From positions 1 to 35,248 of the forward strand of contig JBCDHK010000001.1 in assembly GCA_038750185.1 (NCBI GenBank): a stretch of DNA of 35,248 bases. Reading direction: 5' to 3'. Below the pieces are notes generated by a model, which had not been told where the DNA came from, searched no databases, and worked only from the letters and a program-made list of their open reading frames with translations. Every line of letters starts with the position of its first letter. Position 1 is the first letter of the stretch. A program made the translations under genes and the position numbers. The DNA is from Pseudomonadota bacterium (GTDB lineage: Bacteria > Pseudomonadota > Alphaproteobacteria > Rhodobacterales > Rhodobacteraceae). Positions 17,627 through 20,001 of this stretch are shown here, piece after piece.

Positions 17627-18607
17627 TCAGACCGTCTCCTTGGCCGAGACTGCAGCGCGGGCGAGCTTGGCCTCGCGCGCCGCTCTGAGGCGCTGGAAGT
17701 CGTCCCCAGCGTGGTAGGACGAGCGCGTGAGCGGTGTCGAGGACACCATTAGAAACCCCTTGGAATAGGCCGATTTCTCATAAGCCTCAAACTCCTCCGG
17801 GCTGACATAGCGATCGACGCGGTGGTGCTTGGAGGTCGGCTGGAGATACTGGCCGATGGTCAGGAAATCGATCTCGGCCGAGCGCATGTCGTCCATCACC
17901 TGCAACACTTCGGTGCGGCTCTCGCCAAGCCCGGCCATCAGCCCGGATTTGGTGAAGATGGTCGGGTCGAGTTCCTTGACGCGCTGGAGCAGGCGCAGCG
18001 AGTGGAAATACCGCGCGCCAGGGCGCACCGAGGTATAGAGTGCGGGCACGGTCTCCAGATTGTGGTTGAAGACGTCGGGGCGCGCCTCGACCACCATCTC
18101 CAAAGCCGAAGGGCCACAGCGCAGGAAATCGGGGGTCAGCACCTCGATGGTGGTGGCGTTGTTGCGCCGGCGCACGGCGCGGATGGTCTGGGCGATGTGG
18201 GCGGCGCCCCCGTCCGCCAGATCGTCGCGGTCGACCGAGGTGATCACCACATGCGAGAGCCCGAGCTTGGACACCGCATCAGCCACGCGCACCGGCTCGA
18301 ACACATCGAGCGCCTCAGGGCGTCCGGTGGCGACGTTGCAAAACGTGCACCCGCGCGTGCAGATCTCGCCCATGATCATCATGGTGGCATGGCCCTGGGC
18401 CCAGCACTCGCCCACGTTGGGGCAACCGGCCTCCTGGCACACCGTCGAGAGTTTGTGCTCTTGGATGATCGCGCGCGTGTCCTGATAACCCTGAGAGGTG
18501 GGCGCCTTGACGCGAATCCACTTGGGCTTGGGCGGGCTTGGGTTGTCCTTGCGGTGCGCCTTTTCGGGATGGCGCTCGGCGGGGATTTTCAGATCGCGGC
18601 TCGACAT
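17627..18607 (-). CDS. lipA: Lipoyl synthase
   Basis: [12 protein letters not shown], radical-SAM [34 protein letters not shown]; SD AAGGAG. Confidence 0.98.
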
Positions 18608-18631
18608 GGCTGGCTCCTTCGGCTGGCGATG

Positions 18632-18660
18632 AACTTAGCGGTGGCAGGCGGCGTGTTCCA
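18632..18660 (-). promoter_or_regulatory. Putative sigma70 promoter of lipA
   Basis: Minus strand TGGAAC-N17-TAAGTT ending 24 nt upstream of the lipA ATG. Confidence 0.45.
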
Positions 18661-18686
18661 CCATGGCGGCAGGGGGTGCGACGGCA

Positions 18687-18701
18687 TGGGCATTTCGTCG
18701 C
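18687..18701 (+). promoter_or_regulatory. RegA/PrrA/RegR-like binding site
   Basis: TGGGCATTTCGTCGC matches the RegR box GNGRCRTTNNGNCGC at all defined positions except the first; it lies 2 nt upstream of a -35 hexamer. Confidence 0.5.
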
Positions 18702-18703
18702 GC

Positions 18704-18732
18704 TTGACGCTGGGGGCGTCGGGCCGCAGGAT
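18704..18732 (+). promoter_or_regulatory. Putative sigma70 promoter of the orphan 100-aa gene
   Basis: TTGACG-N17-CAGGAT; predicted TSS ~18739. Confidence 0.55.
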
Positions 18733-18733
18733 G

Positions 18734-18776
18734 TGTCAGCTTAGATGGACAACTCCAACGTCTATTAAGTGCGACA
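18734..18776. promoter_or_regulatory. Tandem PpsR/CrtJ operator (two TGTC-N10-GACA boxes, 7 bp apart)
   Basis: Box 1 TGTCAGCTTAGATGGACA (18734-18751) is a perfect match. Box 2 CGTCTATTAAGTGCGACA (18759-18776) has one mismatch. The patch is AT-rich and overlaps the predicted TSS. Confidence 0.7.
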
Positions 18777-18838
18777 ATAGTATGTGACGACAGCCGCGCC
18801 GATCCGACCGCCAAGCCCTCCCCTTCAAGGAGCCCCCC

Positions 18839-19141
18839 ATGTCCCAATCCACCCTCGCCGAGGAATTCGATCCGATCACCGGCAGCTTCCGTCCGATCAA
18901 GGGCGCCATCACCGCCAGCGCGCGCAAGCCCGTCAAGCAGACCGCCCCCGATCCACGCCCGGCCAAGATCACCGGGCTGTCGGAGAACGGCCAGCGCTAC
19001 GGCGTGTTCTTCGAGGCGTTCGAGCACGCCGCCAAGAGCCCCATGGGCAACATGCTCTATCGCGGGGCGCAGGCGGTGATCGTGGTGGCGTTTTTGCTCC
19101 TGATGTATGAAGCCCTCAACTACCGCCTCGCCCTAGGCTAA
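18839..19141 (+). CDS. Hypothetical 100-aa protein with a single C-terminal transmembrane helix
   Basis: Strong SD AAGGAG, GC3-rich host-like codons, hydrophobic stretch AQAVIVVAFLLLMYEAL near the C-terminus; no family recognised. Confidence 0.85.
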   Translation: MSQSTLAEEFDPITGSFRPIKGAITASARKPVKQTAPDPRPAKITGLSENGQRYGVFFEAFEHAAKSPMGNMLYRGAQAVIVVAFLLLMYEALNYRLALG

Positions 19142-19151
19142 GCCCGCCCGA

Positions 19152-19187
19152 GGCTGCAGGAGCGCGCGCGCGCTCCAACCCGCAGCC
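19152..19187 (+). terminator. GC-rich stem-loop downstream of the orphan gene (terminator or mRNA-stabilising hairpin)
   Basis: Perfect 18-bp palindrome GGAGCGCGCGCGCGCTCC (19159-19176) inside an outer GGCTGC/GCAGCC pairing; no U-tract. Confidence 0.45.
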
Positions 19188-19269
19188 CCACCCCGCTGCC
19201 CGAGAAAGCCAAGCCCCTGGCCACACCCAGCCTCTTGACGCGTGCCGGTAAGAGCCCACGTCGGGACGC

Positions 19270-20001
19270 ATGATGCACTCACTCGGACAGTCCTACCACG
19301 CCGTGGTGATCGGCGCTTCGGGCGGGATCGGTGGCGCCATGGCGCGGCTTTTGGCCGAAGATGGCGCCTGTGCCGGCGTCCATGCCTTCTCGCGCTCGGG
19401 CTCAGCGCCAGAACACGCCAAGATTAACGCCGGTCGCCTCGATCTGACCGATGACACCAGCATCGCCGTCGCGGCGGAGACCGTCCCGCAAGAGCCCACC
19501 TTCATCGTGGTCGCGACCGGGTTTCTCCATGATGGCGGTGCGGGGCCTGAGAAATCCTGGTCCCAGATCACGCCCGACAGTTTTGCGCATAACTTTGCGA
19601 TCAACACCACCGGCCCCGCGCTTGTGGCACGCCATTTCCTCGACCGCTTCCCGCGGCGCGAGCGCTGCATCTTCGCCGCCCTCTCGGCGCGTGTCGGCTC
19701 GATCTCGGACAATAAAGTCGGCGGCTGGTACGGCTACCGCGCCTCCAAGGCCGCCCTCAACCAAGTGCTGAAGTGCCTAGCCATCGAGGGGGCGCGAAAA
19801 CGCAAGCACCTCGTCGTGGCCGGGCTGCAGCCGGGCACCGTGCGCACCGCCCTCTCCGAGCCGTTCCGCGGCGGTGTCTCCAAGCAAAAACTCTTCGAGC
19901 CAGAGGACGCCGCCCGCCATCTCCTCGGCGTGCTCGATGGGCTGGAGCCCCAGCACTCAGGCCGCATGTTCGACTGGCGCGGCGACGAGGTGCCGCCTTG
20001 A
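19270..20001 (+). CDS. Short-chain dehydrogenase/reductase, CsgA (C-factor)-like
   Basis: IGASGGIG, ATGFLH..GPEKS, LSARVGSISDNKVGGWYGYRASKAALN (YxxxK), QPGTVRT. Confidence 0.9.
   Translation: MMHSLGQSYHAVVIGASGGIGGAMARLLAEDGACAGVHAFSRSGSAPEHAKINAGRLDLTDDTSIAVAAETVPQEPTFIVVATGFLHDGGAGPEKSWSQITPDSFAHNFAINTTGPALVARHFLDRFPRRERCIFAALSARVGSISDNKVGGWYGYRASKAALNQVLKCLAIEGARKRKHLVVAGLQPGTVRTALSEPFRGGVSKQKLFEPEDAARHLLGVLDGLEPQHSGRMFDWRGDEVPP

What the first reader, a model, noticed from the sequence alone, without database searches (positions are those of the whole stretch)
18687..19187. Orphan 100-aa membrane protein under a photosynthesis-type promoter (RegA-like box, sigma70, tandem PpsR boxes)
Seen: four elements run in order upstream of the unannotated ORF 18839-19141. 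They are TGGGCATTTCGTCGC (18687-18701), TTGACG-N17-CAGGAT (18704-18732), TGTC-N10-GACA (18734-18751) and, 7 bp later, CGTC-N10-GACA (18759-18776). A strong SD precedes the ORF and a GC hairpin follows it. Known: PpsR/CrtJ represses photosynthesis genes through paired TGTc-N10-gACA palindromes 7-8 bp apart (bchC and puc promoters), and RegA/PrrA activates from GC-rich sites next to the -35. The divergent lipA gene appears to have its own separate promoter (18632-18660). Inference: the host is an anoxygenic phototroph, and this is an unknown PpsR-regulon member outside the photosynthesis gene cluster. Small membrane proteins encoded outside that cluster have been found as extra RC-LH1 subunits by cryo-EM (e.g. 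PufW, protein-U/PufY). This protein could be a new photocomplex subunit or assembly factor.
Basis: partly seen in the sequence, partly recalled or inferred. Interest (0 to 1): 0.82.

Follow-up and report, generated by a model that had tools for sequence, protein, structure and literature searches.

The report
Phototroph-only membrane peptide with PpsR operator
A small membrane protein with no known family, found only in photosynthetic members of one marine bacterial genus, has in this genome alone a strong double binding motif for the photosynthesis repressor PpsR in front of it, and is likely an unrecognised accessory part of the light-harvesting core complex.

Summary
The genome has pufLM, ppsR and regA. 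The tandem boxes are the best PpsR-like pair by mismatch count in the 3.98-Mb genome. By an independent matrix they rank second, after the pufL operator; 0 of 20,000 shuffles reach that score. The ORF is a real gene with no Pfam, NCBIfam or PDB match. Nine of 61 genus genomes carry clear orthologs. Fifteen more carry similar single-helix proteins, 13 of them at the same site beside lipA; homology to those is weak. All 24 carriers have photosynthesis genes; 0 of 17 genomes without reaction-centre hits carry it. It lies in about 80 extra leader bases, and box 1 with its flank shares 15 consecutive bases with this genome's bchC operator. Twenty phototrophs lack the gene, and the link to photosynthesis rests on at most three independent contrasts (not significant). 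Best reading: a lineage-specific accessory peptide of the RC-LH1 core, newly wired to PpsR (0.42). Binding is inferred, not shown.

The parts
17627..18607 (-). lipA (lipoyl synthase), divergent neighbour; marks the locus across the genus
   Evidence: Pfam Radical_SAM and LIAS_N; 76-83% identity in most genus genomes
18632..18660 (-). possible lipA promoter (TGGAAC-N17-TAAGTT); does not overlap the PpsR boxes
   Evidence: sequence; function inferred
18687..18701 (+). RegA/PrrA-like GC-rich box next to the -35; plausible but weak
   Evidence: one mismatch to a recalled RegR consensus; about 0.05 such sites per 250 nt; orthologs have GC-rich but poorer matches
18704..18732 (+). sigma-70-type promoter TTGACG-N17-CAGGAT, likely the ancestral promoter core of the gene
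   Evidence: TTGAC lies 51-57 nt before the ATG in 7 of 8 orthologs and 135 nt before it here; fails the strict scan
18733..18812 (+). about 80 extra leader bases, absent from orthologs, that carry the operator (right end approximate)
   Evidence: difference of the -35-to-ATG distance; alignment of upstream regions
18734..18751 (.). PpsR/CrtJ box 1, perfect TGTC-N10-GACA; 18732-18746 is identical over 15 nt to this genome's bchC operator (C122:7958-7972)
18759..18776 (.). PpsR/CrtJ box 2 (one mismatch), 7 nt after box 1, the same spacing as at this genome's pufL, crtI and acsF-operon pairs
18827..18832 (+). Shine-Dalgarno AAGGAG
   Evidence: sequence; GGAG-type sites in the orthologs
18839..19141 (+). 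100-aa single-pass membrane protein, N-terminus predicted in the cytoplasm; no Pfam, NCBIfam or PDB match
   Evidence: orthologs 41-55% identical; GC3 0.88, like native genes
18857..18898 (+). conserved N-terminal motif (residues 7-20, AEE[FY]DPxTGxF..I), modelled as a beta-hairpin, followed by a variable Pro/Ala/Lys linker
   Evidence: near-invariant in 12 of 13 family-A proteins; strands 8-11 and 16-19 in the model
19001..19033 (+). amphipathic helix (residues 55-65), predicted to lie on the membrane surface
   Evidence: model helix 55-65; hydrophobic moment 0.56
19052..19138 (+). transmembrane helix (about residues 72-90) and conserved C-terminal F.LL.YEA..YRL motif; no histidine in the helix
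   Evidence: (pLDDT 93-98)
19159..19176 (+). GC hairpin after the stop, no U-tract

Best explanation
The ORF encodes a real, genus-restricted single-pass membrane protein that is likely a pigment-free accessory peptide of the reaction centre-LH1 core complex, and in this lineage alone it is predicted to be repressed by PpsR through a newly gained tandem operator. SHOWN: the gene, its conservation, its carriage only by genomes with photosynthesis genes, the operator sequence and its absence from relatives. INFERRED, regulation: sigma-70 polymerase, possibly helped by RegA, starts at the conserved TTGAC promoter. PpsR bound to the two boxes would cover the start site and block transcription when photosynthesis genes are off, so the gene would switch together with puf, bch and crt. 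The operator was likely copied from, or converged on, the bchC operator. INFERRED, protein: the helix would pack against the native parts of the core (LH1 alpha and/or the H subunit), with the amphipathic helix on the cytoplasmic surface, as a spacer or assembly peptide in the manner of protein-Y, -W or -O. The tethered N-terminal hairpin would bind a cytoplasmic partner.
For: 1) Operator quality; the other top pairs include pufL, crtI and the acsF operon. 2) Distribution: 24 of 61 genus genomes carry family A (9), B (13) or a short form (2). Twenty-two have pufL/M hits; the other two (83% and 86% complete) have ppsR and puhA. None of 17 genomes without reaction-centre hits has it; 10 of these are at least 90% complete. 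3) In the RpoB tree the one non-phototroph inside the family-A clade (G361, 98% complete) lacks it while the 6 phototrophs have it; no independent contrast goes the other way. 4) Carriage follows the LH1 type, not pufC or pufX. Among 37 genomes with a readable LH1 alpha, 19 of 20 with DPR[QT] carry it and 0 of 17 with DPRR do. The replaced arginine is the alpha-Arg15 that bonds protein-Y (PMC8589327, passages) and protein-LRC (PMC12618627, passages). 5) This genome keeps the gene with native LH1 (alpha 89-96% to carriers) and native H (67-70% to carriers against 45-50% to pufX-type genomes), although its L and M are foreign. 6) Topology fits a pigment-free single-helix accessory: N-in, no His in the helix, 22 of 22 proteins. 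7) Precedent: extra subunits encoded outside the cluster (PMC12618627, PMC13066640, PMC8589327, passages).
Against: No physical evidence of binding or expression. No match to any solved chain by profile or fold. The operator is absent from 21 of 21 relatives examined. Twenty of 44 phototrophs lack the gene, including G010, which has the DPRT alpha type. Kinship explains much of the pattern: only 1-3 concordant independent contrasts for phototrophy (sign test p 0.25-1) and about 1 for the alpha residue. In G361 the expected site falls at a contig end, so that absence may be an assembly gap. Homology of A and B is not shown directly (hhalign probability 1.35%; 3.4 bits or less). Family A alone is 9 genomes; 7 members of its clade are in the RpoB tree. 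In R. sphaeroides two hypothetical genes with strong, ChIP-bound PpsR motifs were not PpsR-regulated (PMC4344238, passages).
Confidence: 0.42

Rival explanations
1. The protein serves photosynthesis but not as a part of RC-LH1. It could be an extra subunit of cytochrome bc1, a membrane tether that recruits a pigment-synthesis enzyme through its N-terminal hairpin, or a factor that shapes the photosynthetic membrane. PpsR control in this lineage would be real.
For: The same distribution and operator data. A short conserved motif on a flexible linker plus an anchor suits an adaptor. In R. sphaeroides the gene of bc1 subunit IV (fbcQ) lies outside the fbc operon and is a direct PrrA target (PMC4263372, table passage).
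Against: It does not explain why carriage follows the LH1 alpha type (weak). No match to any solved bc1 chain. The hairpin is missing in one family-A member and in the B and short forms.
Confidence: 0.28
2. The protein is a clade-specific membrane peptide of low-oxygen or respiratory metabolism under the conserved (possibly RegA-activated) promoter. Its carriage by phototrophs reflects shared ancestry, and the PpsR pair is a recent, real binding site with little or only incidental effect.
For: The operator is in 1 of 22 upstream regions examined. Independent contrasts are not significant. Twenty phototrophs do without the gene. PpsR-bound but unregulated sites before hypothetical genes exist in R. 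sphaeroides (PMC4344238), and CrtJ binds 108 sites aerobically of which 7 were assigned to genes that change on deletion (PMC5362033).
Against: None of 17 genomes without reaction-centre hits carries it, including G361, G016 and the five-genome non-phototroph clade beside G026. The pair is tandem, correctly spaced and placed over the predicted start site. In run X1 the operator is unchanged while the ORF has two amino-acid changes (one strain, weak).
Confidence: 0.22
3. The boxes are a chance match or serve the divergent lipA gene, and the ORF is an unrelated orphan.
For: Single palindromes are common (299 in the genome). Box 2 alone scores only 9.8 bits, and 373 sites score over 10.
Against: The pair score was reached 0 of 20,000 times in shuffles. 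There is a 15-nt identity with the bchC operator. The boxes lie about 75-115 nt beyond the lipA promoter-like site, and no tandem pair was seen upstream of lipA in the 57 other genus loci scanned (one has no upstream sequence).
Confidence: 0.08

Closest known systems
Protein-Y / protein-U (puyA, Rsp_7571) of Rhodobacter sphaeroides RC-LH1 (PMC8589327, passages)
   Same: Small, pigment-free, narrowly distributed membrane peptide whose gene lies outside the puf operon; binds LH1 alpha Arg15 and RC-L.
   Different: 53 aa with two helices in a hairpin; ours has one helix and a 70-residue cytoplasmic part; no sequence match; carriers of our gene mostly lack the equivalent arginine.
Protein-O / protein-LRC of Dinoroseobacter shibae and protein-3h of Rhodovulum sulfidophilum (Urf1 fragments; PMC12618627, PMC13066640, passages)
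   Same: Rhodobacteraceae core-complex subunits encoded outside the photosynthesis cluster, with a surface helix and an Ala/Pro-rich linker; the LH1 alpha of PDB 8yy9/8yz2 is the nearest solved alpha chain.
   Different: They come from urf1 in the nuo operon and have two N-terminal helices; ours is beside lipA/ratA with one C-terminal helix; no match.
PufX (Pfam PF11511)
   Same: Single-pass peptide of similar size with the N-terminus in the cytoplasm (topology recalled).
   Different: No PF11511 match. This genome has a separate true pufX after pufM. Carriers include pufC-type, pufX-type and genomes with neither.
PpsR/CrtJ-repressed promoters such as R. capsulatus bchC (PMC5362033) and Rubrivivax pucB/crtI (PMC4452267), passages
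   Same: Two closely linked TGT-N12-ACA palindromes; a cGT start of the second box also occurs in Rubrivivax crtI.
   Different: Spacing is 7 nt (8-9 in those papers; 7 at this genome's pufL, crtI and acsF-operon pairs). The boxes lie downstream of the -10 rather than over -35 and -10. The target is outside the cluster and the operator is not conserved in orthologs.
RSP_2095 and RSP_3000 of R. sphaeroides (PMC4344238, passages)
   Same: Hypothetical genes outside the cluster with strong PpsR motifs.
   Different: Those were bound but not differentially expressed, and one motif is listed for each; ours has a tandem pair and a phototroph-only distribution.

Membership tests
PpsR/CrtJ regulon | ppsR and photosynthesis genes in the same genome | tested here: met
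   TIGR02040 436.6 bits; PF00124 twice; PF00556 twice
PpsR/CrtJ regulon | two TGT-N12-ACA-type boxes in tandem at a promoter | tested here: met
   rank 2 pair in the genome, 0 of 20,000 shuffles
PpsR/CrtJ regulon | boxes over -35 and -10 as in bchC | tested here: not met
   boxes begin 1 nt after the predicted -10; no -10-like hexamer 17 nt after the end of box 1 (sequence); the start site is not measured
PpsR/CrtJ regulon | site conserved in orthologs | tested here: not met
   pair score 3.9 bits or less in 21 of 21 relatives; three orthologs have one weak single box (9.5-10.5 bits) 99-199 nt upstream
PpsR/CrtJ regulon | PpsR binding and derepression in a ppsR mutant | not testable with these tools
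   no RNA holder listed
RegA/PrrA regulon | regA present and a GC-rich box next to the -35 | tested here: inconclusive
   regA present; box has one mismatch to a recalled consensus, chance about 0.05 per 250 nt; orthologs mostly 2-3 mismatches
Accessory RC-LH1 subunits (protein-Y/U, -W, -Z, -O/LRC, -3h, gamma) | sequence homology to a solved accessory chain | tested here: not met
   no significant hit with profiles A1, A2, A9 against PDB sequences; Foldseek none at E <= 0.001
Accessory RC-LH1 subunits (protein-Y/U, -W, -Z, -O/LRC, -3h, gamma) | small pigment-free membrane peptide, confined to phototrophs, gene outside the puf operon | tested here: met
   24 of 24 carriers have photosynthesis genes; no His in the helix; weak after correction for kinship
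Accessory RC-LH1 subunits (protein-Y/U, -W, -Z, -O/LRC, -3h, gamma) | physically present in the purified core complex | not testable with these tools
   needs mass spectrometry or cryo-EM
PufX (PF11511) | Pfam match and position after pufM | tested here: not met
   no match; the genome's pufX is another gene
LH alpha/beta polypeptides (PF00556) | Pfam match and a bacteriochlorophyll-binding His in the helix | tested here: not met
   no match; 0 His in the helix in 22 of 22

The most novel reading that the evidence does not exclude
A new, fast-evolving family of core-complex subunits (A, B and short forms being one family) co-evolved with an LH1 alpha type that lost Arg15. In this lineage the reaction centre became chimeric: foreign pufL-pufM-pufX on its own PpsR-controlled cassette, native H and LH1. 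The subunit gene was then wired into the PpsR regulon by a copy of the bchC operator inserted into its leader, which keeps the scattered parts of the photosystem in step. That would be regulon recruitment caught in the act, and a photocomplex subunit predicted from genomes before any structure.
Probability: 0.2. Interest if true: 0.75.

Novelty: new member of a known kind. Interest (0 to 1): 0.52.

Why it matters
In the papers read here the extra RC-LH1 subunits were found from cryo-EM density or mass spectrometry, not predicted from genomes. This gives a named candidate, with orthologs, for a deep-branching marine Rhodobacteraceae genus (records titled Limibaculum and Pikeienuella); no chain related to the protein is in the PDB copy searched. 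It also shows a photosynthesis operator present in one lineage and absent from all relatives examined, with a likely source (the bchC operator). That makes the gain of a regulon member directly testable with reporter fusions. If the protein proves unrelated to the photosystem, what remains is a modest case of operator gain in front of a genus-specific hypothetical gene.

Tried and rejected
COMPLEX PREDICTION of the G036 ortholog with its own L, M and three LH1 alpha chains gave no answer (score 0.00, controls not folded). SEQUENCING RUNS: no RNA holder listed. DATABASE SEARCHES: the word-indexed protein search found only the protein itself. The full HMMER search gave 11 hits, of which 6 are family-A proteins; 5 long, multi-stretch hits (P0006, P0009-P0012) were dropped as repeat or low-complexity matches without being examined further. 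The ESM Atlas gave no hit at or above 0.9 and no named family. Pfam, NCBIfam, PDB-sequence and Foldseek searches gave nothing significant; the weak PsbM hit (E 0.36) is rejected as a helix match. Rfam found nothing at 18500-19400, and the leader does not fold better than shuffles (z 0.76), so there is no sign of an RNA element. OUTSIDE THE GENUS: 0 convincing hits in 300 genomes with profile A1 (three hits at E 0.003-0.004 rejected) and 0 of 400 with profile A9; only 12-16 candidates per genome were scored, so remote members could be missed. None of 29 lipA loci from other genera had a similar small ORF. IDEAS REJECTED: that the protein replaces PufX or PufC (carriers have pufC, pufX or neither); that the boxes serve lipA (position); direct A-B homology. 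An alternative -35 (GTGACG, 18784-18789) lies at the ancestral distance of 55 nt from the ATG but has no -10-like hexamer 17 nt later; it is not excluded as a relic. TREES: the lipA tree used 57 genomes (G382 dropped as a 57%-identity paralog; G021, G027, G368 had no hit); the RpoB tree used 47 of 61 genomes, and G374 is a long, unreliable row. Earlier scan findings: none. PAPER SEARCHES (listings only) showed no paper on this protein, but text search cannot find an unnamed protein. No supplement was read; PpsR/CrtJ target tables there could bear on how often such sites act.

Full report
1. OBSERVATION. A single TGT-N12-ACA means little (3 in the window against 2.47 expected). The tandem pair does. 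Among all TGTC-N10-GACA pairs 6-9 nt apart in the 3.98-Mb genome, this is the only one with a single mismatch; 8 have two, among them the pairs before pufL, the acsF operon and crtI (gene names from my reading of the translations). I trained a matrix on 25 perfect palindromes from 10 relatives' puf regions, so none came from this genome; the set includes some chance sites in coding DNA. Box 1 scores 19.4 bits and the pair 29.1, second only to the pufL operator. Shuffles of the intergenic region reached the pair score 0 of 20,000 times. Other high pairs lie before genes with no obvious link to photosynthesis (C39, C58, C104), so a high score is not proof of function.

2. HOST. The genome has pufL and pufM, ppsR, regA, one LH1 alpha/beta pair and no second LH pair, pufX and puhA. 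Relatives' records are titled Limibaculum, Pikeienuella or Paracoccaceae. The one run that holds the stretch is a marine metagenome and may be the source or a close strain. Its contig covers 18720-19114 with the operator unchanged and two amino-acid changes in the ORF.

3. THE PROTEIN. It has no Pfam, NCBIfam or PDB match. It is not a singleton: 8 of 60 other genomes of the genus encode orthologs (family A), and the representative library adds members; identities to the window protein are 39-55%. All 8 sit in the ispDF-pgpA-cinA-ratA block, 4 of them divergent from lipA as here. The anatomy is a near-invariant N-terminal motif modelled as a hairpin, a variable Pro/Ala/Lys linker, an amphipathic helix, and one C-terminal membrane helix with an invariant F.LL..EA..YR end. 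Basic residues precede the helix, so the N-terminus is predicted inside; there is no His in the helix.

4. A WIDER FAMILY, WEAKLY LINKED. Thirteen other genomes have a 90-106-aa protein with the same layout (family B), 12 of them divergent from lipA (the thirteenth is at a contig break). Two have 64-67-aa forms, one beside lipA. A and B do not align significantly. The short forms bridge them weakly: the A profile scores them 15.0 and 6.2 bits and the B profile scores one 8.4 bits, against 4.2 and 4.8 for the best of 110 control ORFs. The short forms are also the top hits of the window protein in their genomes. Common descent is therefore likely but not shown. A joint profile finds these 24 genomes (most by construction) and no other of 61, and 0 of 400 genomes of other genera (limited sensitivity).

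5. LINK TO PHOTOSYNTHESIS. Forty-four of 61 genomes have photosynthesis genes: 42 by PF00124 and 2 incomplete ones by ppsR and puhA. All 24 carriers are among them. None of the 17 others is a carrier; 10 of the 17 are at least 90% complete, and puhA was checked and not found in 7. Twenty phototrophs lack the gene. On the RpoB tree (47 genomes) family A and family B each follow a clade. G361, a non-phototroph inside clade A, lacks the gene, though its site is at a contig end. G016 and a five-genome non-phototroph group lack the short forms of their phototrophic neighbours, but so does the phototroph G010. Independent pairs: 1-3 concordant, 0 discordant, not significant. Carriage tracks the LH1 type: 19 of 20 genomes whose alpha has DPRQ or DPRT carry the gene, 0 of 17 with DPRR. 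That arginine bonds protein-Y and protein-LRC in solved structures (PMC8589327, PMC12618627, passages), but the pattern amounts to one or two independent events. I recall that DPRQ also occurs in Rhodospirillum rubrum; this was not checked. Carriage does not track pufC or pufX.

6. THE OPERATOR IS NEW. None of 21 relatives' upstream regions has the pair (best 3.9 bits; G365 and G019 were not scored with the matrix). Seven of 8 family-A orthologs have TTGAC 51-57 nt before the ATG; here it is 135 nt. The boxes lie in the roughly 80 extra bases, starting 1 nt after the predicted -10. Box 1 with its flank is identical over 15 nt to this genome's bchC operator and differs by one base from a relative's box. 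The blastn E-value of that match is 0.46, so it counts only because it falls on a PpsR box; copying is an inference and convergence is possible. Three orthologs share one weak single box 99-199 nt upstream, so a weak ancestral site is not excluded. The RegA-like box is plausible but weak, and its consensus is recalled; PMC7561615 (passages) shows only that PrrA sites are GC-rich and variable.

7. CONTEXT: A CHIMERIC CORE. In this genome pufQBA is not followed by pufLM. pufL-pufM-pufX lie on another contig with lower GC (0.54-0.59 against 0.67), beside transposase-like ORFs, under their own PpsR pair. L and M are 87% and 83% identical to the pufX-type G030 but 66-79% to family-A carriers, whereas LH1 alpha (89-96%) and H (67-70%) match the carriers. 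That contig and the window both occur in run X1 at similar depth (about 7-8 and 6-14), and neither is seen in X2 or X3. This fits one organism but does not prove it. G028 also has a detached pufLM-pufX with a 7-nt-spaced PpsR pair. The gene was kept alongside the native LH1 and H, which is why I point to those as partners.

8. MECHANISM. Most likely (0.42) the protein is a pigment-free accessory or assembly peptide of RC-LH1, placed under PpsR in this lineage. Shown: gene, conservation, distribution, operator sequence, lineage-specific presence. Inferred: PpsR binding and repression, RegA activation, membrane topology, contact with the core. Rivals: another photosynthetic role (0.28), a respiratory or low-oxygen peptide with an incidental operator (0.22), chance or lipA control (0.08). 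A caution from R. sphaeroides: two hypothetical genes with ChIP-bound PpsR motifs were not regulated (PMC4344238, passages).

9. COMPARISON AND VERDICT. It would work like protein-Y, -W, -O/LRC or -3h but is homologous to none; it is not PufX and not an LH polypeptide. For the PpsR regulon, the sequence tests are met in this genome and the conservation test is not. Papers seen as passages only: PMC12618627, PMC13066640, PMC4344238, PMC10214105, PMC8589327, PMC5362033, PMC4452267, PMC4263372, PMC6052148, PMC7561615, PMC12654162; no supplements. Novelty: new member of a known kind.

Noticed in passing
G000 contig C143:2281-5160 (L001, L002) and C194:2284-3103 (L094): Split and apparently chimeric photosystem: pufQBA without pufLM on C194; low-GC pufL-pufM-pufX plus a puhC-like gene on C143 beside transposase-like ORFs, with its own tandem PpsR operator. 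L and M resemble pufX-type G030, while LH1 and H resemble the native clade.
   Followed up: partly
L160 (G028:C15:63600-69400); L286, L291: G028 also has pufLM-pufX without pufBA in front, with a 7-nt-spaced PpsR pair about 250-280 nt before pufL, and two puhA genes; possibly a mobile reaction-centre cassette.
   Followed up: partly
L100, L101, L102 (G375, G036, G033): A lone second light-harvesting beta/alpha gene pair far from the cluster, with PpsR-like boxes upstream and a divergent alpha chain; absent from the window's genome.
   Followed up: no
L103, L104, L151, L154, L163-L165, L168-L170, L176, L180: Many genomes of this genus have pufBALM with neither pufC nor pufX detected directly after pufM (simple ORF test), whereas PMC6052148 (passages) found pufX in all 22 pufC-less Rhodobacteraceae it studied.
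   Followed up: no
LH1 beta genes in L094, L103-L110, L151, L154, L156, L163-L165: LH1 beta in types A, B and D mostly has a C-terminal extension of about 15-25 residues after the WRPW motif; type C and G035, G010, G377 lack it.
   Followed up: no
family B alignment A2 (e.g. L049:2656-2949): Family B has an invariant A-x-x-H-N in its soluble part and an invariant Trp in the helix; a possible cofactor ligand not shared by family A.
   Followed up: no
L036:4871, L040:4799, L043:4890: A conserved 18-nt element with one mismatch to TGT-N12-ACA, 99-199 nt upstream of three family-A orthologs; a weak PpsR site or a site of the divergent gene.
   Followed up: partly
G000 C39:14837, C58:4162, C104:4682, C13:22164: Other high-scoring PpsR-like pairs outside the photosynthesis genes: at the start of a galE-like gene, between a Crp/Fnr-type regulator and an acyl-CoA synthetase-like gene, before a glycosyltransferase-like gene, and before an efflux adaptor gene (names from my reading of translations).
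   Followed up: no
L177 and L178 (G383); L179 (G382): G383 has two puf loci, one with a frameshifted pufL; G382 pufL is also in two pieces.
   Followed up: no
L064, L068, L123, L125, L130, L135: In several non-carriers the site beside lipA holds a 143-147-aa lipoprotein-like gene instead, in phototrophs and non-phototrophs alike.
   Followed up: no
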